NCBI GenBank assembly: GCA_043800555.1 | Contig: JAZDMX010000002.1 | Span: 668 to 64,667 of the forward strand | DNA from: Candidatus Omnitrophota bacterium | Lineage (GTDB): Bacteria > Omnitrophota > Gorgyraeia > Gygaellales > Profunditerraquicolaceae | Length of the DNA stretch: 64,000 bases | Direction: 5' to 3' | Shown here: one piece after another, positions 1 through 36,448 of the stretch | How the letters are laid out: every line of letters begins with the position of its first letter | Numbering within the stretch: the first letter of the stretch is position 1 | Made by a program: the position numbers and the translations under genes | Notes under the pieces: generated by a model | Databases searched by the model: none | Seen by the model: only the letters and a program-made list of their open reading frames with translations | What the model was told of the DNA's origin: nothing

Positions 1-3000
1 GCGGTAATCCAAGTCTGCTCCTTAATGTTAGCCTTATTCCCGTTCTTTCTGGTGAGATAGCCTTCGAATTTTTTCCTGTTTTCAGGAGTATCCTTCATGC
101 CAAACTTCTTGGTTCCTGAAGAAAGCAGTTCAATCATTTTCTCTCTGGCAGTTATTTGTATAAAAGTATAAATCCATGTTTTGAGCCCTACTGCCGGTGA
201 AGACGAAATTGTGGGATTTGAGGTTGCACTTCCGGAAATGCCAGCTTTTGCGGTGATTGAGGAAGACGCACTTTTCGCGCCACTGGTTTTTGCAGTCTCC
301 GGGCCGGGAATTACTTTGGCCGCGGTATAAGTCCTTACTGCAGCGCCTACATCTTTTCCGGCTCCTTGAGCCAGATTACCTGTATTACCGGATGCACCTT
401 CTGCACCCTGTCCCGCTTCTCCATCTCTGGAGATTGCACTCCGGGAACCTGCCAAACTTCTTAAAACGTTTGCTAAATTGCTTACTGCCTCTGCTACAAC
501 TGCACTTATTTGCGCTCTTATCTGTCTAAAACCGCTAACCAACTTTGAGTAAGAGTCGGTTAGTGAGCCGGCAGGCGGGGCTAATCCGGCTAAGTGAAGT
601 TTGCCATTACTGGTTATTAATGATAACGGGCTGCTCACAACCTTTAATCTGGCATTTAAACCGGGCAACATCGCCGGATTGACCGGGTTAACAATGCTTG
701 AGCTGCTTATAGCGCCAACCAATGAGCCTACGGGAGTGGAAGAAGAAGCAGTATTGGGTATCGTGACCGGAGATGACGCAGGCAAAGCAGTCTCTTTCTT
801 CTCGGTTAATGGCAGAGGCACTTCGCGCTGGCTACCACCCGGGCCATTGCCTTCACCCAAAACGCCTTTACCTATACTACCGCCACCACTGCCACCAACT
901 GCCAAAGCCGCCTTTACCGCTTCCGCTATAATTACCTGCTTCTGTGCCAAAGGAGACGAGGCAGCAACCCAACCACCCTGTTCAATGTATTCTGTTAATG
1001 CTTTTAAAGTAGGAGATAACGGCCTCTGTCCTGAAGCGCTTGGTTGCTGTTTCATACTCTGCATAATAAGCGATTCTATAAAGCTAACGACCGGCCCAGC
1101 CTCTTTACCAGCCTTTTGCAAACGAGCCTTTAGAGCGCCCCATTCAGCCTTGCCAAACTTAGTATCTATATTGCCGATTATCCCTTTAACCTTGCCGACA
1201 AACCCAGCATTAATTTCGTTGGGATCCTGGCTCTTAATATTAAAAGCCTCTCTAATAACTTCCAATAGTTTCTTGGATTTAGAGCCAGCCATCTCTTTCT
1301 CAACAACAGGCTTGCGGGTTGCATACCATTTTTTATATGCGTCTGTTCCATGAATCTGCGGGACATCTTCTTCTTTGATTAAATTACCTTCGATATCAAA
1401 TACCGGCAGGCGATCTTTTCCTGTTCCTCTCGTAATTTCAAACACTTGATCGGCAAAGATTCTATTAACTATAATACCTATTATCACATTAGGAGACAAT
1501 ACGCCTTTTTCTCTTGCGTTGCTTACATTAATCAATCTTCCTTCGGTATTTAAGACTCCGCCCTCTCCCTCAACCTTTGCTCTAGATATAATAAGAGTGA
1601 CTCTTCCATCAAAATTATCCATACCTGCTGTTAACTCCCGGGCTCCATGCCTGTAGGCATTATATTGATCCGCAAAGCCGCCGGGAAGCAAATAGTCGTA
1701 ACTTTCCGATAAGCTAAAACATATATTAGCTGCATCTTGATAGTTTGCTATGCCGATGTGGCTGGTAGGCATACCTGCTCCTGCTAACCTCTCTATTAAA
1801 TGCCCTTTGTTTTCTATCCCGATAGAAAGACTGTCCCTTAAATAATCCATATGAATTCCGCGCAGAATCTCACCCTTAATGCCACCAATGTCCTCGAATT
1901 GCCTATTAGAAGAGGCTTTTGCAACTACCGGCTTTTGCGCCAAAGGCGCAGAAGAACTAAGGCCTTCCGGCTTTTGGGCTTGTAGCGATGTTACTAAAGA
2001 AGAGCTGGCTTTATCTGTTTGCTCTCCTGACAATTCCGCTCTTTTTATGCCTGCAAAATGATCTGCGCCTTCCTGTGTGGCAAAATTCCAACTACCATAA
2101 GGCCGAGAATAAGCCTCCCCTCCAAAAACAGCTCGCTGCTCAACGGTAACTTCCCAGCCCGGTAAAGCCGGATGAACGAATACTTCCAGGGGTGCTTGCG
2201 CTGCCAATGTTTGAGCCTTTGACAGTCTTAGCTCTCTTAACATAGCTTGTCCCGCCGGGCTTGATAAATCGGTTTTGGCGCCGCCACCCCCAAACTCAAA
2301 GCGCCTAAACGGCATCAATGAACCTAATTCATTCTTTTCCACAATGGAATCGACTATTTCCTCATTGGCCGCATTGCCTATTTCTAAATCGCTTAGGCCG
2401 GCTATGTGCCCGATAGCGTCAAGAAGGGTATGGGTAATTTCGTGCGGTATGATTACAGTAAGCAAGTCGCCCCTCCAGCCCGGCCTTAAACCACCCTGCT
2501 CGTCCAGAAGCAGCCTGGAATTTAAGTTTATATTATAGCCGTATTCAGATATGGTGCTATCGGCCAAGCCGTAATCGCCTTCATAGGTATTAGCTGAAGC
2601 CTTTTCTATCTCTTCGTCTAACCGAAAAATAAGCTGCAACTCTTTACCTAAAGCTCCATACACGCCCTGCAGGTTACCTGCGCTTCCAATATTCGCGATG
2701 ACATCTCTGGCGCGCGCTATCTTTACAGCTGTTTCCTCTTTTTCATCTTGAGGCTTATTAACGGATTCCTGCTCCAGCTTATTCAAATAAGATTCCAGCT
2801 TGCTTGTAATCTTATGCAAATACTGCTTGATAAAACCAGCCCCAAGTTCTCCGGTAAGGGCTGCTTCCTGTATTTCCTTAGTCTTACCATCGCGGGCCGC
2901 AATTAAAGAGCCAGAAAGGGCTATGAGGCCTAAGGCCTGCCTGCGCAACATTTCAGCCCTGAAATAAGGCGTATAGAATATTCCGGCTCCGCCTTCTTGC

Positions 3001-6000
3001 GCCGCCACCTTCCTTAAGTTCCGATACGCCGCTATGGTCCTGGCCGAATTCATATCCGCCGGCAAATAATCCTGCCCTTGGCTAAATAGCGAAGAAATGG
3101 TAACTGTAGAAGGCGTATTATCTATAAGCAAAGCTCCTTTTTCGCCAGTTATAACCGGTATGACATTAACCTCTGCTTTACCCACATCCAAAATCGCCTT
3201 TTGCATCATCTTGTAGCTGCGGTAATACCTGTCGTATAAATACGTTCTAAGCATACCCTGCGCAGGCGCAGAATAATCCAGTTGATCCTGCATATTATCC
3301 GTAAATGTTTCAAATGATTCCTGCAACCCGTCAGGGAGCCCGCCTGCCGCTAAACTATCGCCTGACGGGAAATATTCTCCGATACTCTTAATGCGCTTCG
3401 CATATTTCTCCATGGAAGGGTTTTTCTCCAGCTGCTTCTTAAGCTCCGCGCTGTAACGGCTGTTGATACCGGCAAAATCAGCCAAGGTTGTAGCTTCTTT
3501 AAAGAACATATCGGTGAAATTAGATAAGCTGGAAGATGCCCCAAAGAATGAAAGTATATCTTGTTCGGCGCTGCTTAGGTCTCTCTTTTCGGTAAGTTCC
3601 GTAAGATAATCGCGCAATGCCTTATCTTGAGCAAGGATGTCCTGCGTGAAAAGCCTGTATGACGAAAAGATCGCGTAGAAACCCAACAAATCCGTGCCTG
3701 TATTATTAAATATGTCCGGGCTCTTTTCCAGCAAACCACGCAATTTGGATGCGGCTGTTACGGAATCATTCTGGTTGGCGATTTTAGAAAGAGAGGTTAT
3801 TTCCCTGGTGAACGCGGCATTGGCTTTCTGATAATCTGCTGCTGCTCTCCTGCCAAATGCATTTTCCCGGTTGATGACCGAATTATAAAGATAGAACATC
3901 TGGCTGCCGCTACCGGCAAGCAAGCCTTTTACAAAATAAGCCGGGTTGCGCAAGTAAGCCCTTAGCAAGGCCTCTTTTCCGCTTTCATAGAAGAGGGCAG
4001 CTTGTTGAGCTCCGGGAGTCAATAAGCGATAGGCCCCTGCTGCGGAAGCCAAAGAATCATAGGTATAATTAGGGTCTACCAATGCTACCAAGGCATCGGC
4101 AAGCTTGAATCTGTTAAAGCTGAACTTTTCAAAAGTAGGAATAAAATTATACCCGGCAGAATTTTCATCTGTGGGATATATATAGGCATTAATCTGCTCT
4201 ACCATATTCTGAAGATAATCAAAATAGTTGACATTATTGGCTTGGATTGCATTAGCCTGATTTCGGAAGCCTTCTAATACCTGATAGAAAGGCGAAGATT
4301 GAGGGGTATATGGAAGGATGGTATTTATTAACGCATCGGGTGAACCCCTTACGCCGTTAGCCAAACGCGCAGCCTCCAATTGCCCTAGTATTTTCTGGCG
4401 GGCTTCAAGGCTTAATTCTCCGGTTTGTCCTCTAGGCGCATCAGCTGTATTAAACCTCGCATTTTCGATAATTTGGACCACAGGATGGCTGGAATCAAAG
4501 TTGGAGTTTCTGATCTCATCTGGCAATACGCTCTTCTGCAACCCCTCCGGGCTCTTAGCTACTTCGGCAACGCCAAGCAAGCCGCTGGCATCCTGGAAAG
4601 AAGCTTTATCGTTGTAGGCTATCGAATCATATTTGTCTAAAATTCGCGCTGCCTCTGCCAAAACCGAGCGGGCATTGCTCCTCAGGAAATCAGGAGCATT
4701 AGGCTCATTAACGACTTTCTGGAATATGTCTTCGGCTTTTAAGGCAACTTCTTCAAGGGCCATTCTGATGCGCACTTCAGGAGCCTGGCCTGTTTCAGAA
4801 ATAACCACCTTGTAAGATTCTTTATGCTCTATGGCCTCTTTTAACAATTCTTGCAGCCGGGAAGAAAGCCCCGTGTCGCCCAGCGTATTCGCCTGCACGA
4901 CCATAGTTTTTAGCTTTTCGATTATGCCGCGGGACATAGCCGCTTCTCTTACCTGGAAGACAAGCGCGTCCGAAGTCTCGAGTGCTTCTTTTGCTTTCGA
5001 GCTATATTCCACTTTCCTCCTATAATAATCTCCGTCTCCCTCGCCAACGGCCTGCGGAATAAACTTACCAATGGCCCCTATTTCCTCAATCTTCTTCATG
5101 GTCCTAGTATCAAGATTATCTACGGATAACTTACCGTCTTCATAGTAAACAAGCCTCTTGCCCTCTTCAATATCTTCCCGGAGGCTTCTGTTGTTTCTGT
5201 TTATCGCCTGAATAAGGTCGGAACTTGTCCAGTTATGGGCATCTGCCACAATCAAATCAAAAGCGCCTTTATAATCAATACCGGTTGCTCCTCTTTCATT
5301 GGAGAGGACAATGAGCCTGTCTTCTCCTATGCGTTTACTTATATCAAGAATATCTCCTGCAGAAGTGCCCTCTTTTATCTCGGTAACCGTAAGGCCTTTT
5401 CCTTCGAGATTTGCCTTAATTGCCGCGCGCGCGTCTCTGTCTTTAACAAACACGATCAACCCCTTGGTAACGGCCAGATTGATGTCTTTTGCGTTTAACG
5501 GCATAATTTCCGCTGTTTCAAGGCCTTTCGACTCATGCGCAGTTAAAACCCTGTTTCCGATATTAAACAACAGCATAGACCTTACTGATTCCATGGTTCC
5601 GGAAGCGCCGGCAATAGAAGCGTTTTTCTTAAAACGCAGCATTTCTGAAAGGGTCGCCTGCGAAGATGACTTGGATATTTCCAAATTATTCTTAATGAGG
5701 CTTATATCTTTGCCGCTATATCCCAGCTTTTCCTTTTGAGCCGCAACTCTGGCATATATAGCAGCAAGGAACCCTTCTTCGCTAAATACTTTCTTTGCCT
5801 GGGCTTCTCCTCTATTACTCGGGACAATCTTGTTCCCAAGAACCGTAAAATTGCCTTGGCTCTGGGCATCCCGCGCAGCCAGGTATGCCCCGACTTCTTC
5901 CTTGCCAATACCGCGGTCTTTAAGTATATCCAGGGCCTGCCTGCTGATGACTGTTACCCCGTTTTGTTCATAAAAAGAGGCTTTTTTATTAGCTCTCGCC

Positions 6001-9000
6001 TCTTCTATGCCTGTTTCCCTGGAAATAGTGCCATTTTCGAACAAGGGCTCGATTATCCCGAATACTTCTTCAGCCCTGCTAATCTTAGCAGGAGATTTAT
6101 CAACTAATTTCTCTGCCCCGTAAGAACTGATAAAGGTCGTCTTATCCGAGAATGGAATATGGAATTCATCGAAACGCACTACATCGTGATTGTAAATTGC
6201 CCGCATTAAATCGGGGTCATCGGTCCTATTCCTTAAATGCCCGAATTTATCCATCGAGAATACGGTAATCATTTTTGCGTCTCTTAATACATCCTTGAGC
6301 TTGCCTGAATCAGTTTCATTATCCAGGGCGTCGCCATTCTTAATTTCCAAACCAAATTGGCCTAGGAATTCTGCATTATTCAACTCATTTGCCTTCACTC
6401 CCGAGCTTAAGGCCTGGCCCATTTCATCGGAATTCTTGATGACAAGCACCTCATTATTCTTATACACCAGTTTTCCGCCTATTCCTTCTGCCTTAAGCGC
6501 CGCCAGCAGGGCCATTTCTACAGGAAAAGCAAATGTCTTCCCGCCGCCTGAAGATTGCTGCACGCTGCCGCCTTTGGATAAGCCAACAATCATCCGCAAC
6601 TGGCCTTCTGCCGTATCTCTTGAGAACCCTTTGCCGAACTTACCTTCCATATATTTTAAGGCCGAGGCTATAACTATGCCGTATATCTCACTTTCATTAT
6701 TTCTTCCTTCTTTATTGGATTTAATATTCTGGGCAATAAATGCATCCGGCCTAAGCCCTGCGATAAACAAGGAGCCATCTTGAAATATTATCTTGCCCAA
6801 GTAAGCGTTAATGGAATCAACAATGGGCTGCAATTTTATAACATCATCCAGGCTTGCGCCTTCTTTAATACCGACTTTCAAGTCTTGGGTGAGCGTAAGA
6901 GCTCCGATATTAAACCCTGAAGCAGCTTTCTCCATGTCTTTCATGCTGTAGAACCGGCCAATCTCCGAAGAATATTCTGAAAGCTGCTCAACGCTAAAAG
7001 TAATTTTCTCGTTTGCCAGGGGGGAATCCTTGATCTTCTCTAAAGCTTTGCTAAACAAAGAGCCTTCTCTGGCTTGGATACTGTCAATAAACCGGCCGAG
7101 GCGATTCCTTGCTTTTAGCTCGACAGTATTTTCTCCCTCAAGCCTCCCGTAAAGAAGCCCGCCGGCTATCTCTATCAAGGATGCGGTATTTTCCTTAGCG
7201 GCCGACAGGCGCGCGTAATCTTTATTCGAACAAACCGTGCTCAATTCGCCTAATAAGTTATTAACTGCGCCTGCTTCTGTATTAAGCGTATCTGCTGTTA
7301 TGCCGGCATTGAGGATATTCCTTAACGCCCTTAAAGCTTCCAGGGCAGCGCTTAGATTCTCAAATCGTTTTATCTGCCTCCGGTATTCTGCCGCGGAAAC
7401 ATTGTCTACCAGCTCCTTGAGAATCGCATTGGGAGCGAGTTTAACAAAACCGTCCAAATCCGTTATGGGAGTTGTAATTTTTGCGGCCCTGACGTATTCA
7501 CCAATAAGCCCCCAGGTGCTTTCCAAAGCCTTGCTTGAGCCCTTAGAATCAGGGTAAAAATCCTTTATCTTGCCAAATGCCGTCTTTTTATCTTGCGCGT
7601 TATAAGCATCCACTAACCCTTTCTTTAATAACCCTAACTCGCTTAACTGCAATTGATGGATACGGCTTAAATCCGCGCCTTCAAGATAAGCGGATATCCT
7701 TCTCTCTCTCGCATGGAAATAATCTTTATATTTACCGGTTATGGCGGGCTCTTTTCCCTGCGCGCGCTGATACGCCAAGCTCTCGACCTCGCTCATTACT
7801 GAAGAGACATATTCCCTCTTTACTGCTTTATCGGTAATAGCGGACAGATTGGCGGTTAATGTTGTTTCAAATCTTTTCTTAAGGTTATCCGTTAATCCAT
7901 CCCTCCAGATTTCACCTAATTCTATGCCTTTTATCAGGCTGCCGCTCTTCCTTGCGCTCTCAAACAAGGAATCCAGCGCTTTTGTTTTAATCGCTCTGTC
8001 TATGCCTAGCTTAAGGATAATATCCTTCCTGCCGGGGAACCTGAAAGCGATATCCGTAGTGTCGCCTATAGCGGCTTTTGAAACTCTGGCAGCTTCATCG
8101 GAAGTAGCAAAATCCAATAAGCCCGTTCCGCTTCTAAAATTGATTATTGAAGCATCAACCACTTTCCTGACCAAGACATAATTGCCATGATTTGAAGAAA
8201 GTTCTTTTATCTTATTAATCTCTGTTTGTACCTGAGGCCCGTTATCAGCCAAAGCTTCAGTCTTTATCCCTTCTGAAGGATAAGAATTCCTCTGCGCGAC
8301 AAAATCATTAAGATATCCGATAACCCCTTCCTGGTTCCCTTTTAATACCGCATCAAAAGCTTTCTTAAAATTATTGCCTTTATCCCAAATAAAATTAGCC
8401 TGCCCCTCAAGAACTGCCCTGGTAACACCTTCCGGCTCTCCAAGGTTATCATGGGCAAACTTTATGAAATTATCTTTTACGGCGGAGCTAAACCCGGTCA
8501 TCTTCGCTACAGCTTGTTCAAAATTCCCGCCGTTTTCTCTTAATATACCTTTGAACGCATAAAAATCTTCCCTGGAGAGCGCCGTAGCTCCAGCCCTGTC
8601 AATTAAAGAAGGCTCTAAACTCGGCGCCATAAAGAACGGAAGCCACTTAAAAGCTTCTTTTTCTCCGCCGGATAAATAACCGTTTACGCTAAAAAGAGGG
8701 ATTTCTTTACCGTTAATATTAACGCTTCCCTGCTTTCCTGTCTGAAGATCCTTGAGCGGCCGGGCATCAAGCTGGATTCCCGCTGCATTTGCCAAGACGG
8801 AATCGGCCAAGGCTACTGCCTTATCAACGCCTGAAACAAAGCCCGGCATCCAGATTACAGAAGAATCAATCCATTTTCCAAAGCTTATTGCCCTGCCTAA
8901 AGCTCCTGCCGTAGGATTAATTGCCTTAAAAACTATGCCATCTGCGGCATTTTTCTGCAACCCGGACTTTTCTAAGCCCAGCCTGCCGATATTGATAATT

Positions 9001-27161: not shown

Positions 27162-27187
27162 CTCTTCACCTCCTTAAAAAATACGCC

Positions 27188-27526
27188 CTAAGGATTACTC
27201 TGGTTAACCGCAGCCTTAACCGTTTGAGTCCCTGTCCTGGATGCGGCAGTATTAACGGTCCTGGCAACCCCTCCGCCTGTAGCTGTATCTTCTGTATCAG
27301 TAGCGGATTGGGTAGAGCTCATGGCTGACTGCGTGTAATATGGCTCATACTGCGCGGTTGTGCCGGTAACATTATCTCCGGAATCCTTATAATCCACCGC
27401 GTCCTTGATTTTTCCCTGCAGCCCGCGTTTAACATAGACTTGCATAGCCACTACCGCGGCAACAACCAAACCTATAACTATGGCGTATTCCGCGGTGCTC
27501 TGGCCCTTTCTTGTCAGCTTAAACAT
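27188..27526 (-). CDS. flp: Flp-family pilin with Thr/Ala-rich tail (112 aa)
   Basis: MFKLTRKGQSTAEYAIVIGLVVAAVVAMQVYVKRGLQGKI…; SD AGGAGGT upstream. Confidence 0.8.
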   Translation of the reverse strand: MFKLTRKGQSTAEYAIVIGLVVAAVVAMQVYVKRGLQGKIKDAVDYKDSGDNVTGTTAQYEPYYTQSAMSSTQSATDTEDTATGGGVARTVNTAASRTGTQTVKAAVNQSNP

Positions 27527-27571
27527 ATCTTACCTCCTTTTATTGTCCGCCCGGGCAAACCCGGTTTCATC

Positions 27572-27760
27572 TTACGGCGTAGTTGTGCCGCCGAAACTAA
27601 CCGACTCTATCTTATCATGCATCTTGGTAGTAAGAGTATCGTAAGAACTCTGTAGTTTTGGTTTAAGAAGCGTGCTGGCGACATAAATTATCGCCCCGAC
27701 CACCGCAGCCAAAATAATAACGTACTCCAGCGTGCTTTGAGCCCTGCTAAACTTTTTCAT
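27572..27760 (-). CDS. flp: Flp-family pilin (62 aa)
   Basis: MKKFSRAQSTLEYVIILAAVVGAIIYVASTLLKPKL…; SD GGGAGGTG upstream. Confidence 0.8.
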   Translation of the reverse strand: MKKFSRAQSTLEYVIILAAVVGAIIYVASTLLKPKLQSSYDTLTTKMHDKIESVSFGGTTTP

Positions 27761-27779
27761 CTTTTCACCTCCCTATTGA

Positions 27780-27941
27780 TTATTCCTTCCGGTAATAATT
27801 CAATTCGTCCTGCGCCTGTATAAGGCGGGCGTTCATCGAACGCATTATATACGTAGTCATCGCCATCAACGCGGCAGCGACGATAATTATCAACATGGTA
27901 TACTCCACGACACTCTGGGCTTTTTGTTTGGCTGTTTTCAT
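27780..27941 (-). CDS. flp: Flp-family pilin (53 aa). Not in the ORF track (under 60 aa).
   Basis: Manual translation: MKTAKQKAQSVVEYTMLIIIVAAALMAMTTYIMRSMNARLIQAQDELNYYRKE*. The track's 27757..27978 ORF is in another frame and judged spurious. Confidence 0.6.
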   Translation of the reverse strand: MKTAKQKAQSVVEYTMLIIIVAAALMAMTTYIMRSMNARLIQAQDELNYYRKE

Positions 27942-28081
27942 TCCATTCTTGCCTTGGCATTGGCAACGTAATCCTCAAAGATCTTTGGGATCTTCTCCAT
28001 AAAAATCACGGAGAGGCTCACGATAATCGCAAAAATAACCACATACTCTATTACGCTCTGGCCCTTCTTCGCTAAAATCAT
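27938..28081 (-). CDS. flp: Flp-family pilin (47 aa). Not in the ORF track (under 60 aa).
   Basis: Manual translation: MILAKKGQSVIEYVVIFAIIVSLSVIFMEKIPKIFEDYVANAKARME*; 4-nt ATGA overlap with the next pilin gene. Confidence 0.55.
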   Translation of the reverse strand: MILAKKGQSVIEYVVIFAIIVSLSVIFMEKIPKIFEDYVANAKARME

Positions 28082-30434: not shown

Positions 30435-30797
30435 TCACTCTAAGGTAATGTGATCGCCCACGGCTGTAAAGCTATCTTTGATTGCCCCGGAAGGAAGTTC
30501 AATGACATAATTGGCTTGGAAATATATCCTGGTGAATTTAAACGGCTTAATACCGGAAAGGGTTTGAATGACCTTATTATCCCTGCCCATAAATAAGGCA
30601 TCAATGGAAAATCGCATAAAGAACGTGTGGATGGAATTACAGGGTTTAATTATAAGGGCTTGGCTTTTATTAAAACTTTTCTTTCCTAACAGGCCTTTGA
30701 TCCTCTTAAGCGGGGAACCGGCAATAAAAACGTCGCCGGCTACAACTGTATTCCGGGTTTTATTAATCAGGCGCATAGAGTTAATAGGAAGATACAA
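30435..30797 (-). CDS. DUF192 (COG1430) family protein
   Basis: 120 aa; …IIKPCNSIHTFFMRFSIDALFMGRDNKVIQ… matches the conserved core of DUF192. Confidence 0.6.
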   Translation of the reverse strand: MYLPINSMRLINKTRNTVVAGDVFIAGSPLKRIKGLLGKKSFNKSQALIIKPCNSIHTFFMRFSIDALFMGRDNKVIQTLSGIKPFKFTRIYFQANYVIELPSGAIKDSFTAVGDHITLE

Positions 30798-30818: not shown

Positions 30819-32981
30819 CTATTTATTGGGCTTACTGGGTTTGAATATTTCTTCCGAGACCACGATGCCGCGCACCCGGATCTCGTCGAGAAAAGAAGGC
30901 TTGTATCCGGTGGCGGTAAAATACCCGTGCACCTTGCCCTGGGCGTCCACCCCGGTCTGCTTAAAGACGAATATATCGTTAAGAATAATGTGCAACTCGT
31001 CTTTCATCCCGGTAATTTCAGATACAGCCATGATTTTACGCGAGCCGTCGGATAACCGGGCCGTATGGACTATTATGTCGACGGCAGAGGCGATCATTTC
31101 GCGTATGGCCCTGACCGGGAGCTCTACTCCCGACATAAGGATCATGGAATCCAGCCGGGACAAAACATCATAGGTGGAATTGGCGTGAATGGTGGTCATC
31201 GAACCGTCGTGGCCGGTATTCATTGCCTGAAGCATATCCAGAGACTCTGTCCCGCGGCATTCGCCGACGATAATCCTGTCCGGGCGCATGCGCAGGGTAT
31301 TGCGGAAAAGGTCTTTTATGGCAACCGCGCCCTTGCCCTCGATGTTCGGCGGACGGCTCTCCAATCTTACCCAATGCTCCTGGTTTAGTTTTAATTCGGC
31401 GGCATCCTCTAAGGTTATGATCCTCTCGTTATTGGGGATATGCTCGGAGAGGGCGTTAAGCACGGTGGTTTTGCCGGAGCCGGTGCCGCCGGAAACAATC
31501 ATGTTCTTACGGCATAGAACGCAAGTCATGATAAAATCCGCCATTTCCTGCGTAAGCGCGCCCAAAGCAATCAGGTCTTTCGTCTTATACCTCTCCTTGC
31601 GGAATTTCCTGATTGTTAACGTCGGGCCTGTTAAGGCAAGCGGCGGGATAATCGCGTTTACGCGCGAGCCATCGGCAAGGCGGGCGTCAACCATAGGCAC
31701 AGATTCATCGATACGCCTTCCGATAGGGGCGATTATGCGTTCGATGATCGTGCGGACCTGCTCGTTAGAGATGAATTTCTTGCTGGTTGGCTCGATCCTG
31801 CCGTGTTTTTCGACAAAGATTTCATCTTTGTTATTAACCATAATATCGGTGATATCCGTATCGGCCAAAAGGTCCTCTAAGGGCCCCAGCCCCAGGGCTT
31901 CATCAAGTATTTCTTTAACAAGCTTTTTCCTGTCGTCCTGGGAAGGGATAAAACTTCCCGCTTCTTCCAGCAAAAGATTAGCTACGGTAATTTCCGCCCT
32001 GTCTCTTAATTCTTTGGTTTTCTTGTAGTCGCTGAAGACATTCAGGTTCATTAACTTGATATTCATGCCGTCGAGAAGGCGGCTATGTATTTTCCTCTTA
32101 AGGGCCAAAACTTCATCCCTGTCTTCTGAACTCGGCTCAACCACCGTATCAGTCAGGCCCTGCTCTTGCCAAAATTGCCCCGGTTTTTCCAACCCGCTAG
32201 ACTTTAAAGCAATTTCATCGAGGTTCTTCCTGTCTACGAATAAATTTTTGTTCGCGCAAAGCGCGCGGGCCAATCCTATAATCGACTGCGCTACCCGCGA
32301 ATGCGGCGCATCGATAACAACCGGCACTCCCCGGTTCACCGCCTGGTTTACTACTCTTCCGTCGGAAGGGATCCTCTCAATTATTTCCAAAGGGATGTTA
32401 TTGCGGATCTCCTGCCAGCTTATGCTCGAGGAGGACTCTGCCCGGTTAAGCACAAGCCTTATCATGTTCAAAGGAAAATGCAGCACCTGCAGGGTATCCA
32501 GCATCCATTTAGTCTGATACACCGAAAGCACGTCCGGAGTAACCATCAAAAGCATTAAATTCGCCTGATTTAAAGCGGAGAGGAAAACGTTGTTAAAGCT
32601 CTCTCCCGCGTCGGAGATTATATAATCGTAATCTTTATCCAGAAAAGAAAAGACTTCCTGGATCATTTCCGGGTGCAGGTGCGCCGCCTGTTGCGGCCTC
32701 AAAATACCCGTCAGGAAATCCACGCTATAAAGGTTGGTCTTAACGACAAAATCCTCTTTTTTGGTCTTTTGCGGCTGTTTTTGCAGGAAGCCCATAAGGT
32801 CGGCTATTGATTTCTGCGGGCTGAGGTTAAGCATATGCGCCATGTCTCCGACCACATGGGTATCCAGGTCAATAAGGCAAACCCGGTTGCCTTCGGCGGC
32901 AAGAGCCACCGCCAGGCTGGAAGTAATCAGCGTCTTGCCTGTCCCGCCTTTAGTGCTGAATATTACTATTCTTTTGGCCAT
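30819..32981 (-). CDS. cpaF: Fusion of a CpaE/TadZ-like ParA/MinD ATPase domain (N-terminal) with the CpaF/TadA secretion ATPase (C-terminal)
   Basis: 720 aa; N-term MAKRIVIFSTKGGTGKTLITSSLAVALAAEGNRVCLIDLD (deviant Walker A of ParA/MinD). C-term …MIVSGGTGSGKTTVLNALS…RIITLEDAAEL…GHDGSMTTIHANS… (VirB11/CpaF family). Confidence 0.8.
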   Translation of the reverse strand: MAKRIVIFSTKGGTGKTLITSSLAVALAAEGNRVCLIDLDTHVVGDMAHMLNLSPQKSIADLMGFLQKQPQKTKKEDFVVKTNLYSVDFLTGILRPQQAAHLHPEMIQEVFSFLDKDYDYIISDAGESFNNVFLSALNQANLMLLMVTPDVLSVYQTKWMLDTLQVLHFPLNMIRLVLNRAESSSSISWQEIRNNIPLEIIERIPSDGRVVNQAVNRGVPVVIDAPHSRVAQSIIGLARALCANKNLFVDRKNLDEIALKSSGLEKPGQFWQEQGLTDTVVEPSSEDRDEVLALKRKIHSRLLDGMNIKLMNLNVFSDYKKTKELRDRAEITVANLLLEEAGSFIPSQDDRKKLVKEILDEALGLGPLEDLLADTDITDIMVNNKDEIFVEKHGRIEPTSKKFISNEQVRTIIERIIAPIGRRIDESVPMVDARLADGSRVNAIIPPLALTGPTLTIRKFRKERYKTKDLIALGALTQEMADFIMTCVLCRKNMIVSGGTGSGKTTVLNALSEHIPNNERIITLEDAAELKLNQEHWVRLESRPPNIEGKGAVAIKDLFRNTLRMRPDRIIVGECRGTESLDMLQAMNTGHDGSMTTIHANSTYDVLSRLDSMILMSGVELPVRAIREMIASAVDIIVHTARLSDGSRKIMAVSEITGMKDELHIILNDIFVFKQTGVDAQGKVHGYFTATGYKPSFLDEIRVRGIVVSEEIFKPSKPNK

Positions 32982-32982
32982 G

Positions 32983-34617
32983 CTATTCCAATTGATAAAT
33001 AATGGGAATGTCTATCCAAAGATCATTTTCTTTTATTGCGGGAGGAAACGGGGGATACGGCGCTATTTTTCGAGCCGCGCTTAAAGCGTCATCGTCGAGC
33101 ATGCGGGACATTGAAGATTCCTTGATTTTCGAATCCAGCAATTCCCCCTGATAAGAAAGCCTGAGGCTCAACTTTACCGTGCCCTGCAAACCCAGTTGCC
33201 TGGCTTCGGACGGATAAGAAAGATTATCCAGTATCTTTCTCTGGATTATTTTACAATAGTTTAAAACCGGATCCTGCTCCTTGTCGTTAACGGCCAAAGG
33301 GGCATCCGCCGCAGGCGCCTTTTCTATTGCCTCTTCTTGCGGCTTTTGAGGGTAAACGATTCTCGGCGTAAGCGTAATAAATAATTCTGTATCGGTTAAA
33401 TTATCGGTGTCGGAATTCCAGCCCTGCTGGGTTGTTTTTTGCCTGAAGATGGCCCCTAAAACAGGGATCTCGGAAAGCCAGGGGACCCGGCGCAGTGTCT
33501 CTTTATTCTTCTTTTTAATTAAGCCTCCGATGGCCATGGTCTCGCCGTCGTTAAGGAATAACTCGGTGGTCGCGGTGCGCTTAGTCATTTTATACGCCAA
33601 GGCATAAGTAGTCTCCACCTGGTCCCCTAATTCGCTGACCACGACATTCAGGTTAAGGTGGACACGGCCAGAATCTTCGAGCCTGGGGTTTATGCTAAGG
33701 ATTATCCCGTATTCTTTATACTCGACAGTCCCTCCCGTGGTTGCGCCAACCGAGCTAGAGCCGCTTGTGCCCGGGGTGACTGTGCCGCTTAAAACCGGGA
33801 CTTCCCCTCCGACAACCAACTTTGCTTCTTTACCGCTCTGGCAGGAAAGCCTGGGCCGGGAAAGTATTCTCGCCTTGCCCTCCTGTATTAAGGCGTCTAA
33901 TTTCAACGTAAATGGGTTTGCTGTCCCGTCTACTGAACGGGCAACATTAGAAACGTGGAAAACCTTGCCCCAGGTTGTGCCTCCGGCAGAAAGGGCGGCA
34001 GAGCCGACTTCGGTAAAAGTAACTGAACCCGGCCAGGTAAATCCCAGGTCATTCTCATGCCCGCTATTTATTTCGATTACCTGGACATCGATCTCCAGGC
34101 TTGCCTCCTCCTCTTTTACCACTATTAAATCAACCGCTTTTTCTTTGAGCGGCCCCAAAGCGATAGCGATCCTGTCTTTATCTTTAGGGGATTTTATGCT
34201 TCCCAACAGCATTACCTTTCCTTCTTCATCTTCGGCTTTAGTATTTACGCCGGATATACCGAGTTTGGACAATATATTATCTATCCGGCGCTTGATCGCT
34301 CCGGTATCTTCCGCATAAACTTTTATCCGGTAAGACTGTTCCCCGAAATTATCCCAAACAGTCAGGGTGGCCGTGCCGGCGGATTTAGGATTAAGCGTTA
34401 TCTCGGATTTACTGACGCTAACGACATCGGCGACCGCGGGCTTGCTGATAGAAACGCGCATAGGATTGCTCACCGGCACTATCTGGATCTCTCCGACAAA
34501 ACACTTCAATTCTTCAGCCGATGCGTCAATCGAATAAACCTTAAAAGGCATGATAATAACCGAAGCAATTACGAATATAAGGCCGGTAAGTAATCTTTTC
34601 ATTTTCCTCGCTCTCAT
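32983..34617 (-). CDS. cpaC: CpaC/RcpA-type secretin with an appended C-terminal TonB-C-like domain
   Basis: 544 aa; signal peptide. Secretin core …ARILSRPRLSCQSGKEAKLVVGGEVPVLSGTV…EYKEYGIILSINPRL… The last about 90 aa (…NYCKIIQRKILDNLSYPSEARQLGLQGTVKLSLRLSYQGELLDSKIKESSMSRMLDDDALSAARKIAPYPPFP…) match the TonB C-terminal consensus (YP..A…G.V.v.f.i…G.v…v..SSG…LD.aAl.av). Confidence 0.7.
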   Translation of the reverse strand: MRARKMKRLLTGLIFVIASVIIMPFKVYSIDASAEELKCFVGEIQIVPVSNPMRVSISKPAVADVVSVSKSEITLNPKSAGTATLTVWDNFGEQSYRIKVYAEDTGAIKRRIDNILSKLGISGVNTKAEDEEGKVMLLGSIKSPKDKDRIAIALGPLKEKAVDLIVVKEEEASLEIDVQVIEINSGHENDLGFTWPGSVTFTEVGSAALSAGGTTWGKVFHVSNVARSVDGTANPFTLKLDALIQEGKARILSRPRLSCQSGKEAKLVVGGEVPVLSGTVTPGTSGSSSVGATTGGTVEYKEYGIILSINPRLEDSGRVHLNLNVVVSELGDQVETTYALAYKMTKRTATTELFLNDGETMAIGGLIKKKNKETLRRVPWLSEIPVLGAIFRQKTTQQGWNSDTDNLTDTELFITLTPRIVYPQKPQEEAIEKAPAADAPLAVNDKEQDPVLNYCKIIQRKILDNLSYPSEARQLGLQGTVKLSLRLSYQGELLDSKIKESSMSRMLDDDALSAARKIAPYPPFPPAIKENDLWIDIPIIYQLE

Positions 34618-35537
34618 TTAGATATCGGGATTCTTTCTTTATTCGCCCCGCGGTAAATTTCTATCGTATCCGCCGAAGATTGCTCTTCTTTCTTTTCATG
34701 GCCTGCTGCCGGGTTTAACCCGGAATTGGCGTCTTGAGACTGCGGCATAATATACTGAAAGAGCGTATTCAGGTTAGCCGGCATAATCGGTTCGACTCTT
34801 GCATCTGCCGGAGAGCGCAGGGTAAAACGAATTTTACCCTGTTCCTGCACAAAGGCGATAAAACTGGATTCCTGGGGGGATAACGCCAAAGTAACTAAAA
34901 CCGTCCCGCCGGAGATAGGGGCTTCTTCTCTGGTGCGGCTGTGCTGGCTTACAGGGGCTCCGGTATTCTGGCCTACAGCCAAAACCAAGACATTTTGGAA
35001 TAACGGTATTACCGCTATTTGAGAGCCTTGCTGGCCGTCAGCGCCCTGGACCGGTATCTGAATCGTCGCGATAACATCCACATAATCCCCCGGTTTTACC
35101 ATGCCTGCCACAGAAGCTATATTATCAACCGCGACTGAAATCGCCCGCTTTCCTGCCGGGGTTATGCCGGCTAGATCTCCGCCGGCCTGCTTTACGTTAG
35201 CTAACTTCGAGAGGGTCACTTGCTCTCCCTTGGAAATAGGCGCCACGGTGACCATGCCGGAGACCCTGCTTAACGAAGTAACTGCCTGCGGCTGGACAAA
35301 TTTATTCGGCACAACAGCGGTATCTAGCGGCGCGGACTCTATATACGTGCCTTTAGGTATATCCTGCTTTGCCACTAAAACGGCGCTTTGATTGCTCTGG
35401 ATATTGGCAATCGCCCTTCTGGCCTCTTCCCGGGAGGCCTGCTGCTGATGATCCAGGTAGACCTTGACCATGACAATCGCCAATAACCCCAAAGCCACTC
35501 CGGCAATAAGTACAATTTTTTGTTTTTCAATAGGCAC
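34614..35537 (-). CDS. cpaB: Flp pilus assembly protein CpaB/RcpC
   Basis: 307 aa; N-terminal TM (IVLIAGVALGLLAIVMV), then a SAF-like region; adjacent to the secretin. Confidence 0.65.
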   Translation of the reverse strand: MPIEKQKIVLIAGVALGLLAIVMVKVYLDHQQQASREEARRAIANIQSNQSAVLVAKQDIPKGTYIESAPLDTAVVPNKFVQPQAVTSLSRVSGMVTVAPISKGEQVTLSKLANVKQAGGDLAGITPAGKRAISVAVDNIASVAGMVKPGDYVDVIATIQIPVQGADGQQGSQIAVIPLFQNVLVLAVGQNTGAPVSQHSRTREEAPISGGTVLVTLALSPQESSFIAFVQEQGKIRFTLRSPADARVEPIMPANLNTLFQYIMPQSQDANSGLNPAAGHEKKEEQSSADTIEIYRGANKERIPISK

Positions 35538-36448
35538 TATTTTATCTCTCCTTCGTTTATTTCAATTTTAGCTTCGCGGGAAAGCTTGCCGATTAGGTCC
35601 TCTACAACTTGCTGTTGCTTCAAAAAGGTAAGGCCGCGTTTTATATCATCCCACATATCGGAAAGCGACTTCTGTTTTCCTCCGTGCTTGAGCTCCAGCT
35701 TGATAATATAATACCCGTCGGGGCCCTTAAAAATACTGCTGATTTTTCCCAGCTCCAGGGAATCGGAGAAAGCTACTGCGTCAAACTGGGCGGGTTTCTG
35801 GCCTTTCTTGATGAAACCCAGGTCTCCGCCGTTTTTTGCGCTGGATGAAATCGAGCGTTCTTTGGCTAAAGTGGCAAAGTCCGCGCCCTGCAGCAGCTGG
35901 ATCATTATATCTTTGGCGTCCTGCTCGGTGGGAACGACAATTTCCCGTATCTGCCTTTCCTCGGGTTCTTTGAGCTGTTCTTTATAAGTATTATAATAAT
36001 CCTCTATCTCCTTGGAAGAGACGTCGACTTTCTGAGTAACGTCTTTAATCAACTGCAGGACTAACAGGTCCATCTTGGTTTTTTCCAGGGCCCGCAGGAC
36101 ATCTTCATTCCTGTCCAGGCCTTTATCCAAAGCATCCTGGTATAAGAGGGTCCGGCGGATTACTTCATTCTTAAGGTAAGCGATTTTCTGTTCGCGCGTG
36201 GTTACTTTAAGCTCGGGTTTATCGGCGGGCACATTGGCGTTGTAAAGATCGACCTCCTGGTTAAAATCATCCAGGCCTATCGAGATATTATTGACTTTGG
36301 CAACTATCGGGCCTTTTGGCTGGGCAGTCAAGGCGGGAATTTTTATTTCTACCTTACGCCCCCCGACCATTGAGTTAATCTTATTGCATCCTACAATAAC
36401 GCTAAAGAATAAACCTAAAACCGCCCACAAAATAATATTGCGTTTCAA
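35537..36448 (-). CDS. Parvulin-type peptidyl-prolyl isomerase lipoprotein (PrsA/SurA-like)
   Basis: 303 aa; lipoprotein signal (…FSVIVGC). PpiC domain …AKNGGDLGFIKKGQKPAQFDAVAFSDSLELGKISSIFKGPDGYYIIKLE. Confidence 0.7.
   Translation of the reverse strand: MKRNIILWAVLGLFFSVIVGCNKINSMVGGRKVEIKIPALTAQPKGPIVAKVNNISIGLDDFNQEVDLYNANVPADKPELKVTTREQKIAYLKNEVIRRTLLYQDALDKGLDRNEDVLRALEKTKMDLLVLQLIKDVTQKVDVSSKEIEDYYNTYKEQLKEPEERQIREIVVPTEQDAKDIMIQLLQGADFATLAKERSISSSAKNGGDLGFIKKGQKPAQFDAVAFSDSLELGKISSIFKGPDGYYIIKLELKHGGKQKSLSDMWDDIKRGLTFLKQQQVVEDLIGKLSREAKIEINEGEIK

What the first reader, a model, noticed from the sequence alone, without database searches (positions are those of the whole stretch)
1..36448. 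Giant gene lies co-directionally just downstream of a complete Tad/Flp pilus locus: candidate attachment / contact-dependent system
From 36448 down to 1, every gene is on the minus strand: PrsA-like PPIase, cpaB, cpaC, cpaE/F, DUF192, HTH/coiled-coil protein, nine pilin genes, tadE/F/G-like, tadB, tadC, porin, giant gene. The only clear breaks are the hairpin repeats. Tad pili mediate tight adherence and are required for prey attachment in predatory bacteria. A 6,000+ aa protein with peptidase, ATPase and HExxH domains next to the locus suggests a combined adhesion/effector apparatus. This inference rests on gene order only.
Basis: inference. Interest (0 to 1): 0.8.

Follow-up and report, generated by a model that had tools for sequence, protein, structure and literature searches.

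The report
Omnitrophota Tad locus, riboswitch-gated giant gene
This is the already-published pairing of a Tad-type pilus gene cluster with a giant surface-protein gene in the tiny predatory or parasitic Omnitrophota bacteria; the giant gene also proves to be its own transcription unit, apparently switched on by the signal molecule c-di-GMP through a conserved riboswitch.

Summary
The gene order is real. A minus-strand Tad/Flp cluster (36448-20655) is followed by an OprB porin and an open frame of at least 6,233 codons (18701 to the window edge).

Homologues place the window in Candidatus Omnitrophota. The same arrangement recurs there: Tad genes lie upstream of 41 of 55 giant-anchored loci, and 12 of the other 14 have another huge ORF filling the flank. 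Of 18 TadC-anchored loci, 17 carry a giant ORF or its riboswitch downstream.

This association is already published (West-Roberts et al. 2023 bioRxiv), including the PPIase, rcpC, gspD/E/F, class-III-signal genes and N-terminal C39 domain.

New relative to the papers I could search: the giant gene has its own near-consensus promoter (19031-19004), a c-di-GMP-I riboswitch (18973-18873) and a competing terminator (18886-18837). That arrangement predicts an ON switch. The aptamer lies within 600 nt upstream of the giant gene in 67 of 78 species-level loci, with strong covariation.

The C39 peptidase fold and a conserved HExxH...NExxxD motif are supported. The ATPase domain is not. What the giant protein does remains inferred.

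The parts
3..18701 (-). 5' part (at least 6,233 codons) of a giant gene. It runs off the window, so the 3' end was not seen.
   Evidence: Open frame 18716..3 with ATG at 18701. No internal repeats by BLASTP. The body is a mosaic of modules shared with other Omnitrophota giant ORFs.
18563..18701 (-). N-terminal export signal: a Lys-rich stretch, a hydrophobic helix (about aa 25-45) and a conserved AQA|VEYDW that looks like a signal-peptidase site.
   Evidence: Kyte-Doolittle peak 1.81 at aa 24. The segment is conserved in 31 homologues. Cleavage is inferred, not shown.
17892..18449 (-). C39 papain-like cysteine peptidase domain (about aa 85-270) with Cys136, His228 and Asp244.
   Evidence: Pfam PF03412. 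AlphaFold core pLDDT is about 85-96. Foldseek top hits are 6mpz LahT150, PCAT1 and ComA PEP, E 2e-6, TM about 0.7. C136 and H228 are invariant. Asp244 is read in the window; it is the consensus residue in the alignment but not invariant.
2343..2642 (-). Probable gluzincin-type metallopeptidase module (about aa 5354-5453): HEITH at aa 5420-5424 and NEEIVD 22 residues later.
18698..18793 (-). Conserved leader element: a possible 31-codon upstream ORF whose TGA stop overlaps the giant ATG. It contains a nearly invariant GGGGTAAGGGG (18757-18747). Function unexplained.
   Evidence: Found in 72 places across 68 of 88 sources (the 87 loci held at that point plus the window); about 54 of these are ATG-started frames, 8 of which run on in frame into the giant ORF. 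Variability shows no 3-nt periodicity, so an RNA element is at least as likely.
18837..18886 (-). Intrinsic terminator (expression platform). Its 5' arm CCGAGCUG (18886-18879) is also the 3' strand of aptamer helix P2. The 3' arm is CAGCUCGG (18854-18847), followed by a U-tract (18845-18837).
   Evidence: Folding. The element is aligned and covaries in 22 UTRs. It is present after 100 of 123 aptamers, against 3.5% in shuffled controls.
18873..18973 (-). c-di-GMP-I (GEMM-I clan) riboswitch aptamer in the 5' UTR of the giant gene.
   Evidence: Rfam RF03167, 65 bits (gathering score 59), E 4e-13. In 83 aligned homologues 98% of cells pair, 12 of 20 pairs show two-sided changes and 0 of 500 shuffles reach the observed covariation. 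The contact bases G20, A47 and C92 are canonical.
19004..19031 (-). Near-consensus sigma-70 promoter with an extended -10: TTGACA, 16 nt, TG-n-TATACT.
   Evidence: 11 of 12 matches. A similar promoter (at least 9 of 12 matches; 11 of 12 in 57 of them) was found within about 110 nt upstream of the aptamer in 63 of 64 related loci, 4-26 nt upstream in 58.
19111..19255 (-). Nested palindromic repeat (REP-like) ending in a T-run. Probably the terminator of the Tad/porin transcript.
   Evidence: Four copies of the 20-mer. Folds to -83.8 kcal/mol, z -9.
19305..20534 (-). OprB-family outer-membrane porin.
   Evidence: PF04966, E 2e-32. It sits at this position only in the closest relatives.
20502..20634 (-). 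Second nested palindromic repeat, between tadC and the porin gene.
20655..22497 (-). TadC (20655-21515) and TadB (21517-22497) platform proteins.
   Evidence: PF00482 T2SSF, E 2e-16 and 2e-18.
22382..22564 (-). Tenth Flp-like pilin ORF (60 aa; N-terminus KAQTVIEY).
   Evidence: Sequence motif. The same ORF is present in L008 and L018.
22539..23384 (-). Conserved 281-aa exported protein of unknown function.
   Evidence: No Pfam hit. Homologues lie at the same position in many loci.
23406..24962 (-). TadG-like protein.
   Evidence: PF13400, E 3e-8.
24973..28081 (-). Nine pilin or pseudopilin ORFs (47-219 aa) with a class III signal of the G/XXXXEY type.
   Evidence: Translations. Weak Class_IIIsignal and Flp1_like Pfam hits.
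28123..30276 (-). Conserved 717-aa protein: a weak HTH, a charged coiled coil and an unknown C-terminal domain.
   Evidence: HTH_32, E 0.02. Homologues lie upstream of the pilins in many loci.
30435..30797 (-). DUF192 protein.
   Evidence: PF02643, E 5e-15.
30819..32981 (-). CpaE/TadZ-like ParA ATPase fused to the CpaF/TadA secretion ATPase.
   Evidence: CbiA/ParA at aa 3-240 and T2SSE at aa 363-643 in one 720-aa ORF.
32983..34617 (-). CpaC/RcpA secretin with a C-terminal TonB_C domain.
   Evidence: PF00263, PF13629 and PF03544.
34614..36448 (-). CpaB/RcpC (34614-35537) and a PrsA/SurA-like PPIase (35537-36448).
   Evidence: PF16976; Rotamase and SurA_N.
37154..40842 (+). Divergent FIST protein, GAF histidine kinase and response regulator with a GGDEF-like domain (motif GGDDF). 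A possible local source of c-di-GMP.
   Evidence: Pfam; sequence. Activity and any link to the locus are inferred.

Best explanation
**What it is.** The window comes from a Candidatus Omnitrophota genome. It carries that phylum's conserved two-part surface locus.

**Part 1: the Tad cluster.** This is a Tad/Flp (type IVc) pilus cluster. It comprises a PPIase, CpaB, a secretin-TonB_C fusion, a CpaE-CpaF fusion, DUF192, a 717-aa protein, ten Flp-type pilins or pseudopilins, TadG, TadB and TadC. Here it also includes an OprB porin. It ends at a palindromic terminator.

**Part 2: the giant gene.** This is a separate transcription unit.
- A strong, near-consensus promoter fires into a c-di-GMP-I aptamer.
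- The 3' strand of the aptamer is also the 5' arm of an intrinsic terminator.
- Without ligand the terminator forms and transcription stops about 135 nt before the ATG.
- With c-di-GMP bound the aptamer holds that strand and RNA polymerase reads into the giant ORF of at least 18.7 kb. This is an ON switch.

**The protein (inferred).** It is exported by an N-terminal Sec-type signal. It starts with a C39 cysteine peptidase that looks catalytically competent and carries a probable zinc metallopeptidase near aa 5400. It most likely acts outside the cytoplasm alongside the Tad pili in attachment to other cells and attack on their surfaces.

**Shown versus inferred.**
- Shown computationally: gene identities, synteny, the aptamer with covariation, the promoter, the terminator overlap and the C39 fold.
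- Inferred: ligand binding, direction of the switch in vivo, export route, protease activity and substrates, and any role in predation.
For: **Taxon and family**
- 42 homologues of the N-terminal 1,000 aa were found. Nearly all those that carry a source name are called Omnitrophota/Omnitrophica C39 proteins.
- 80 genome loci were retrieved, most titled Omnitrophota, about 17 titled 'uncultured Planctomycetales/Planctomycetia' and one Margulisiibacteriota.

**Synteny**
- 7 of 7 looked-up contexts have Tad genes upstream.
- 41 of 55 giant-anchored loci have tadB, tadC or tadG upstream on the same strand.
- 12 of the other 14 have another ORF of at least 1,000 aa filling the flank.
- Of 18 TadC-anchored loci with at least 8 kb downstream, 14 have the C39 module and 3 more have the riboswitch. 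In two of those three (L148, L163) a long ORF without a C39 N-terminus follows; in the third (L106) the aptamer is cut by the contig end.

**Literature**
- The same locus is described in 10.1101/2023.11.21.568195 and in 10.64898/2026.06.07.730766.

**Riboswitch**
- Rfam hits above the gathering score in the window and in 6 of 7 first loci.
- My own covariance model finds the aptamer within 600 nt upstream of the giant ORF (median 166 nt) in 67 of 78 testable loci.
- Covariation: 98% of cells paired, 212 cells with two-sided changes, 0 of 500 shuffles as high.
- Contact bases: G20 in 73 of 83, A47 in 83 of 83, C92 in 80-83 of 83.

**Promoter and terminator**
- A promoter matching at least 9 of 12 positions lies upstream of the aptamer in 63 of 64 loci.
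- A terminator competing with helix P2 follows 100 of 123 aptamers, against 3.5% in shuffles.
- The pilin operons of many relatives have the same ON-type aptamer.

**Protein**
- C39 fold and catalytic residues.
- HExxH module.
Against: - No experiment or expression data were available, so ligand binding and the ON direction rest on sequence logic alone.
- The window's own pilin operon has no riboswitch. Co-regulation with Tad in this particular genome is therefore not shown.
- The adjacent response regulator has GGDDF instead of GGDEF/GGEEF. It may not make c-di-GMP.
- Rfam's best-scoring submodel is the 'GGC' variant, whose ligand I could not verify. The window itself keeps A47, which is canonical.
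- C39 domains normally sit on the cytoplasmic side of ABC exporters. Here no ABC domain is present and the domain is predicted to be exported.
- The gene is truncated by the window, so its C-terminal domains and downstream genes (PilZ, per the literature) were not seen.
Confidence: 0.72

Rival explanations
1. The Tad-like machine is mainly a dedicated export or assembly system for the giant protein, not a pilus that works beside it. The protein would cross the outer membrane through the TonB_C-fused secretin, and the many 'pilins' would form a piston-like pseudopilus, as in type II secretion.
For: West-Roberts et al. describe the cluster as a type II secretion-like system preceding giant genes. 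The pairing persists when the internal Tad gene order changes. The giant protein has a Sec-type signal and so needs a route across the outer membrane. The secretin has an unusual TonB_C domain.
Against: All the hallmarks are those of Tad/Flp pili: the G/XXXXEY pilins, TadG, CpaB, and CpaE-CpaF. No Tad system is known to secrete a folded multi-thousand-residue substrate (my own knowledge). Tandem giant genes share a single Tad cluster at most. One Tad locus of this type has no giant gene downstream (L150).
Confidence: 0.15
2. The adjacency is inherited gene order with no functional coupling. Two surface-related loci simply stayed together in small, streamlined genomes.
For: They are separate transcription units, each with its own promoter and terminator. 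The window's pilin operon lacks the riboswitch. One Tad locus is followed by housekeeping genes (L150).
Against: Synteny holds down to about 37-40% TadC identity and across rearranged Tad clusters. Many lineages put the same ON riboswitch in front of both the pilin operon and the giant gene. The body of the giant gene diverges far faster than the Tad genes, yet its position is kept.
Confidence: 0.1
3. The N-terminal C39 peptidase of the giant protein replaces the missing TadV/CpaA prepilin peptidase and processes the Flp pilins.
For: No A24 prepilin peptidase is found in the window. C39 enzymes cleave after small residues (Gly-Gly/Ala/Ser), and the pilins are cut after G or A.
Against: The pilin -2 position is Lys or Arg, not Gly. 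Prepilin processing happens at the cytoplasmic face, whereas this domain follows an export signal. TadV may simply be encoded elsewhere in the genome, which I could not test. Giant genes in tandem arrays each carry their own C39 domain.
Confidence: 0.03
4. The giant ORF is an assembly or annotation artefact, or a decaying pseudogene.
For: Only one weak Pfam hit in 6,233 residues. Very few homologues exist for distal parts.
Against: The frame is uninterrupted for 18.7 kb. The N-terminal module is conserved in more than 100 loci. Promoter, riboswitch and terminator are conserved. Internal modules are shared with other giant ORFs. Peptides from such a protein were reported for V. archaeovorus (cited in PMC10066038).
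Confidence: 0.02

Closest known systems
Omnitrophota giant-gene loci (West-Roberts et al. 2023, bioRxiv 10.1101/2023.11.21.568195; also 10.64898/2026.06.07.730766 and Seymour et al. 2023, PMC10066038)
   Same: The giant ORF is preceded by a secretion or pilus cluster of more than 10 genes: gspD/E/F-type proteins, rcpC, a Rotamase_2 PPIase and many small class III signal genes. There is an N-terminal C39 domain next to a signal peptide. Few other domains are recognisable and the sequence diverges fast.
   Different: Those papers do not contain the word riboswitch. In the 6,233 residues visible here there is no SecA_DEAD domain, no dockerin or TSP3 repeat, and only one clear membrane helix. Total length is unknown, since those papers concern genes over 20-90 kb. 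An OprB porin is inserted here.
Bacillus thuringiensis Bc2 c-di-GMP-I riboswitch controlling the collagen adhesion protein Cap (PMC4933901)
   Same: A class I c-di-GMP aptamer lies in the 5' UTR of a large surface adhesin gene. According to that paper's abstract, expression is repressed unless c-di-GMP is available.
   Different: The phylum and the protein are unrelated. Here the cargo is at least 18.7 kb, the promoter is near consensus, and the arrangement is conserved across a whole phylum next to a Tad cluster. The ON direction here is predicted, not measured.
Tad/Flp pili of Caulobacter (Cpa) and Aggregatibacter (Tad/Rcp)
   Same: CpaB/RcpC, the CpaC/RcpA secretin, CpaE/TadZ, CpaF/TadA, TadB, TadC, TadG-like protein and Flp pilins with G/XXXXEY.
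   Different: CpaE and CpaF are fused. The secretin carries TonB_C. There are ten pilin-like genes. No TadV/CpaA or TadD/CpaD was found in the window. PPIase, DUF192 and 717-aa proteins are built into the cluster.
C39 double-glycine peptidase domains of PCAT/AMS ABC exporters (LahT, PCAT1, ComA)
   Same: The fold and the Cys-His-Asp spacing, with His to Asp at +16.
   Different: There is no ABC transporter. The domain follows an export signal at the start of a giant protein. The substrate is unknown; self-processing has been suggested in the literature.
LapA / LapG / LapD of Pseudomonas fluorescens (from my own knowledge, not tested here)
   Same: A giant surface adhesin, a periplasmic cysteine protease acting at its N-terminal anchor, and control by c-di-GMP.
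   Different: There, c-di-GMP acts through a protein receptor (LapD) after translation, the protease is a separate protein of another family, and export is type I. Here control is at transcription and the protease is part of the giant protein. This is an analogy only.

Membership tests
Tad/Flp (type IVc) pilus system | TadA/CpaF-type secretion ATPase | tested here: met
   PF00437 T2SSE, E 7e-62, aa 363-643 of the 30819-32981 ORF.
Tad/Flp (type IVc) pilus system | Two T2SSF-type platform proteins (TadB, TadC) | tested here: met
   PF00482 in the 21517-22497 and 20655-21515 ORFs.
Tad/Flp (type IVc) pilus system | RcpA/CpaC secretin and RcpC/CpaB | tested here: met
   PF00263 with PF13629, and PF16976.
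Tad/Flp (type IVc) pilus system | Flp-type pilins with a G/XXXXEY processing motif | tested here: met
   Ten ORFs with [GA]-Q-[ST]-x-x-E-[YF] followed by a hydrophobic helix. The Pfam hits are weak and below cut-off.
Tad/Flp (type IVc) pilus system | Dedicated prepilin peptidase (TadV/CpaA, family A24) | tested here: not met
   No PF01478 hit in any window ORF scanned. It may be encoded elsewhere in the genome, which cannot be tested from this window.
Omnitrophota giant-gene locus (West-Roberts 2023) | Giant ORF preceded by the conserved secretion/pilus cluster with Rotamase_2 PPIase, rcpC, gspD/E/F and class III signal genes | tested here: met
   compared with the description read. Synteny.
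Omnitrophota giant-gene locus (West-Roberts 2023) | N-terminal C39 (or S8) peptidase near a signal peptide | tested here: met
Omnitrophota giant-gene locus (West-Roberts 2023) | Numerous transmembrane helices and a SecA_DEAD-like domain | tested here: inconclusive
   None in the 6,233 residues visible: no Pfam hit, and one strong plus two or three weak hydrophobic segments. The gene continues beyond the window.
Omnitrophota giant-gene locus (West-Roberts 2023) | Length over 20-30 thousand codons; PilZ genes downstream | not testable with these tools
   The 3' end lies outside the window. At least 6,233 codons are seen.
c-di-GMP-I riboswitch (GEMM-I, Rfam clan CL00126) | Match to the covariance model above the curated threshold | tested here: met
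   RF03167, 65 bits against 59. Relatives match RF03167 or RF01051.
c-di-GMP-I riboswitch (GEMM-I, Rfam clan CL00126) | Helices supported by compensatory changes | tested here: met
   12 of 20 pairs have two-sided changes and 98% of cells pair. Partners slid by 1-3 columns drop to 33-49% paired. The alignment was fitted to the model, which favours the structure.
c-di-GMP-I riboswitch (GEMM-I, Rfam clan CL00126) | Ligand-contacting G20, A47, C92 (A20 would suggest cGAMP) | tested here: met
   G in 73 of 83, A in 83 of 83, C in 80-83 of 83. The mapping to Vc2 numbering is from my own knowledge of the Vc2 structure.
c-di-GMP-I riboswitch (GEMM-I, Rfam clan CL00126) | Binds c-di-GMP and changes expression | not testable with these tools
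   Needs in-line probing or ITC, and transcription assays.
Peptidase family C39 | Papain-like fold with catalytic Cys and His (plus Asp) | tested here: met
   Foldseek hits 6mpz, 7n87, 5xe8. C136 and H228 are invariant. The window has Asp244.
Peptidase family C39 | N-terminal domain of an ABC exporter that cleaves double-glycine leaders | tested here: not met
   No ABC_membrane or ABC_tran hit anywhere in the giant ORF. The context is different, so I call it a C39-fold domain, not a PCAT-type processing domain.
Gluzincin metallopeptidases | HExxH plus a downstream Glu ligand on a second helix, in a zincin fold | tested here: inconclusive

The most novel reading that the evidence does not exclude
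Across Omnitrophota, c-di-GMP is the common trigger that deploys the attack or attachment surface. A strong promoter held shut by an ON-type c-di-GMP-I riboswitch gates each giant gene. In many lineages the same device gates the Flp pilin operon. A surface- or prey-contact signal that raises c-di-GMP would then release transcription of genes 20-250 kb long. The exported N-terminal C39 protease would then process the giant protein or release it from its anchor. This would be the first regulatory handle on bacterial giant proteins and a phylum-wide riboswitch regulon for predation or parasitism.
Probability: 0.4. Interest if true: 0.65.

Novelty: new member of a known kind. Interest (0 to 1): 0.45.

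Why it matters
The Tad-giant gene pairing is not new. It is a published hallmark of Omnitrophota, ultra-small bacteria thought to prey on or parasitise other microbes.

What could matter is the control element. The function and timing of expression of bacterial giant proteins are open questions, and these organisms are uncultured. A conserved c-di-GMP riboswitch with a simple terminator platform gives a test that needs no culture:
- RNA binding and in vitro transcription assays.
- Read-through ratios in existing metatranscriptomes.

It also ties giant-protein deployment to the second messenger that governs attachment in other bacteria. Finally, the promoter-aptamer-terminator cassette is a precise marker for finding the 5' ends of giant genes in fragmented metagenome assemblies.

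Tried and rejected
- **Internal repeats.** BLASTP of 300-aa chunks of the giant protein against itself found none.
- **Sequence search against PDB.** Both halves gave only the weak C39 hit.
- **ATPase.** No Walker A or DEAD motif and no NTPase Pfam hit.
- **Word-indexed homologue search of aa 5101-5700.** One hit only. The exhaustive search gave six.
- **Upstream ORF.** The frame is kept in many loci, but variability shows no codon periodicity. Left unexplained.
- **Second riboswitch in the window.** I looked before the window's pilin genes and found none. Other lineages have one.
- **First automated terminator count.** It used MFE folding and was too crude, giving 20 of 73. I replaced it with a direct complementarity test with a shuffled control.
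- **Supplement of Weinberg et al. 2017.** I wanted it to learn what the 'GGC' variant binds, but it is not held.
- **C39 as substitute prepilin peptidase.** Considered and judged unlikely (see rivals).
- **'No Tad upstream' in 14 loci.** This looked like counter-evidence, but 12 are tandem giant genes whose upstream flank is filled by another huge ORF.

Full report

Yes, with small corrections. ORF listing and a six-frame scan show that all long frames between 36448 and 1 lie on the minus strand. One frame is open for 6,238 codons from 18716 to the window edge, with its first ATG at 18701.

Pfam confirms these identities:
- A PrsA/SurA-like PPIase.
- CpaB/RcpC.
- A secretin that also carries a TonB_C domain.
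- A single ORF fusing a ParA/MinD-type CpaE to the CpaF ATPase.
- DUF192.
- A TadG-like protein.
- Two T2SSF platform proteins.
- An OprB porin.

Nine ORFs between 24973 and 28081, and a tenth at 22382-22564, begin with a basic stretch, then [GA]-Q-[ST]-x-x-E-[YF], then a hydrophobic helix. That is the Flp G/XXXXEY signature.

The 'hairpin repeats' are an REP-like 20-mer present 18 times at nine intergenic sites, where 0.01 is expected. They include the three breaks inside the cluster. No A24 prepilin peptidase is encoded in the window.

**2. The giant protein**

Only one Pfam family reaches threshold: Peptidase_C39 at aa 215-266. Several results support it:
- The first ~290 residues are 50-75% identical in dozens of homologues, with C136 and H228 invariant. 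The window has Asp at 244; this column is Asp in the consensus but is not listed as 90% conserved.
- An AlphaFold model has a confident core.
- That core matches double-glycine C39 proteases: LahT150, PCAT1 and ComA, with E 2e-6 and TM about 0.7.

The domain follows a Lys-rich N-terminus, one strong hydrophobic helix and a conserved AQA|VEYDW. I infer that it is exported. It is not cytoplasmic as in ABC exporters.

There are no internal repeats.

Beyond the N-terminal module even the closest relative aligns only over aa 521-1033, although its TadB is 85% identical. Other modules (about aa 2820-3366 and 3359-4929) recur at different positions in other giant ORFs. The body is therefore mosaic and fast-evolving.

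**3. Origin and synteny**

Almost all N-terminal homologues that carry a source name are called Candidatus Omnitrophota/Omnitrophica. Most of the 80 genome loci are titled Omnitrophota; about 17 are titled 'uncultured Planctomycetales/Planctomycetia' and one Margulisiibacteriota.

Anchoring on the giant gene:
- Seven of seven looked-up contexts show pilin-like genes, a TadG-like protein and T2SSF genes directly upstream on the same strand.
- Among 55 species-level loci with at least 4 kb upstream, 41 have tadB, tadC or tadG upstream.
- Of the other 14, 12 have another ORF of at least 1,000 aa on the same strand filling the flank. These are tandem giant genes, so Tad may lie further away. The remaining two still show pilin-like or cluster proteins.

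Anchoring on TadC in metagenomes, among 18 loci with at least 8 kb downstream:
- 14 have the C39 module downstream.
- 3 more have the riboswitch. Two of these (L148, L163) are followed by a large ORF with a different N-terminus; the third (L106) is cut by the contig end.
- One (L150) is followed by housekeeping genes.

The pairing survives changes in the internal order of the Tad cluster (L160, L166).

**4. This is already known**

West-Roberts et al. [quoted passage not shown] They list gspD/E/F, rcpC, a Rotamase_2 PPIase and many small class III signal genes. They also report that the proteins start with C39 domains near signal peptides.

A 2026 preprint finds secretion or pilus flanks at 13 of 14 giants, including a 'Tad-pilus assembly cassette'. 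Seymour et al. 2023 tabulate Tad and 'big ORF' as symbiosis traits.

**5. What the gap before the giant gene holds**

Rfam finds a c-di-GMP-I-clan aptamer at 18973-18873: RF03167, 65 bits against a gathering score of 59.

It is conserved:
- It appears at the same place in 6 of the first 7 loci.
- A covariance model built from eight copies finds it within 600 nt upstream of the giant ORF (median 166 nt) in 67 of 78 testable species loci. It lies 1.2-3.5 kb upstream in five more.
- On 83 copies, 98% of cells pair and 12 of 20 pairs show two-sided changes. No shuffle of 500 reaches the observed covariation, and slid registers collapse to 33-49% paired.

The ligand-contacting bases are canonical: G20 in 73 of 83, A47 in 83 of 83 and C92 in 80-83 of 83. 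The 'GGC' label of the best Rfam submodel therefore does not describe the window's binding site, and c-di-GMP is the expected ligand.

A promoter lies upstream of the aptamer: TTGACA, 16-18 nt, TG-n-TATACT or TATATT. It scores 11 of 12 in the window (19031-19004). A promoter matching at least 9 of 12 positions is found in 63 of 64 loci, 4-26 nt upstream of the aptamer in 58 of them.

Immediately downstream, CAGCUCGG (18854-18847) pairs with CCGAGCUG (18886-18879) and is followed by a U-tract. CCGAGCUG is also the 3' strand of aptamer helix P2. Such a competing terminator follows 100 of 123 aptamers, against 3.5% of shuffled controls, and it covaries with the aptamer strand.

The aptamer and the terminator exclude each other. 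Ligand binding should therefore allow read-through, which makes this an ON switch. This direction is inferred.

The palindrome after the porin gene ends in a T-run and folds at z = -9. The Tad/porin transcript probably ends there.

**6. Links to c-di-GMP**

- In many relatives a second aptamer of the same clan, with the same type of terminator, precedes the first pilin gene. The window has none there.
- Divergently upstream of the cluster the window encodes a FIST protein, a GAF histidine kinase and a response regulator with a GGDEF-like domain. Its motif reads GGDDF, so activity is uncertain.
- The literature reports PilZ genes after giant genes and GGDEF domains inside some of them.
- None of the three Omnitrophota papers contains the word riboswitch. 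A full-text search for riboswitch together with Omnitroph* found only unrelated papers. I could not check Rfam's own annotation or the Weinberg 2017 supplement.

**7. Mechanism I consider most likely**

The Tad cluster builds Flp-type pili. The giant gene is a separate unit with a strong promoter held off by premature termination until c-di-GMP rises. Its product is exported, carries at least two protease-type modules and a fast-changing body, and acts at the cell surface together with the pili. The C39 domain may process the giant protein or release it, as the literature suggests.

Rival explanations:
- Tad as a dedicated exporter of the giant protein (0.15).
- Mere inherited adjacency (0.10).
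- C39 as a replacement prepilin peptidase (0.03).
- Artefact or pseudogene (0.02).

**8. Verdict**

The locus is a new member of a known kind. The added value is the conserved promoter-riboswitch-terminator cassette, which makes giant-gene regulation directly testable. Interest is 0.45.

Noticed in passing
window 18747-18757 (motif), 18698-18793 (possible uORF): A nearly invariant GGGGTAAGGGG followed by a U-rich tract lies between the riboswitch terminator and the giant ATG. It was found in 72 places across 68 of 88 sources searched. It sits in a 20-33-codon frame (consensus ..K..GVRG[KE][LIF][YCF]F..) that often ends at or overlaps the giant start codon. In 8 loci this frame runs on in frame into the giant ORF. 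Variability shows no codon periodicity, so whether it is a peptide or an RNA element is unresolved.
   Followed up: partly
window 19111-19255, 20502-20634, 30359-30413, 36842-36897, 41074-41128, 45298-45353, 48434-48489: An REP-like palindromic 20-mer, GGGGGACGTTTCTACTTTTC, occurs in inverted pairs, 18 copies in all, in intergenic gaps across the whole window and not only in the Tad locus. Two sites are nested double hairpins. Copies at 20502-20521 and 45298-45353 fall inside the 5' ends of the listed ORFs 19305-20534 and 43969-45390. The true starts of those genes are therefore probably further downstream.
   Followed up: partly
L003:735-865, L006:832-920, L005:818-930, L110:2543-2682, L129:3299-3431, L104:3811-3940 and others: In many related Omnitrophota loci a second c-di-GMP-I aptamer with its own competing terminator sits in front of the first Flp pilin gene. 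The pilus operon and the giant gene would then respond to the same signal. The window lineage lacks this copy.
   Followed up: partly
L031, L061, L072, L078, L080, L021 (upstream flanks): C39-type giant genes often stand in tandem behind another ORF of 1,000 to more than 2,500 codons on the same strand. In L031 and L061 each unit has its own riboswitch. Some MAGs hold two or three C39-type giant genes on different contigs, for example L013 and L078, L046 and L059, and L039, L044 and L085.
   Followed up: partly
L148:12929-15282, L163:16439-20495: Two Tad loci are followed by the riboswitch and a long ORF whose N-terminus is not a C39 domain. The cassette therefore also serves other types of giant gene.
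   Followed up: no
window 32983-34617 and 30819-32981: There are two gene fusions in the Tad machinery: a secretin with a C-terminal TonB_C domain, and a ParA-like CpaE fused to the CpaF ATPase. I did not check how widespread they are.
   Followed up: no
window 39907-40842 (+): A response regulator with a GGDEF-like domain reads GGDDF at the signature motif, and Pfam matches only the first half of the GGDEF model. It follows a FIST protein and a GAF histidine kinase, divergent from the Tad cluster.
   Followed up: partly
window 42828-45390 and 56041-57942 (-): The same window holds genes for a GHL10 glycosyl-hydrolase-like protein, an SH3b plus NlpC/P60 cell-wall peptidase and a GH39-like protein. 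This fits a lifestyle that degrades cell walls or polysaccharides.
   Followed up: no
window 46431-47473 (-): A HEPN protein next to a nucleotidyltransferase (MNT-type) protein forms a likely toxin-antitoxin pair, in a stretch with lower GC content (0.385).
   Followed up: no
window 36524-36769 (-) and 36981-37055 (-): A small ORF (81 codons as listed) for a hydrophobic protein, with a good Shine-Dalgarno sequence, and a tRNA-Glu gene lie just upstream of the PPIase gene on the same strand. The minus-strand run therefore extends past 36448.
   Followed up: no
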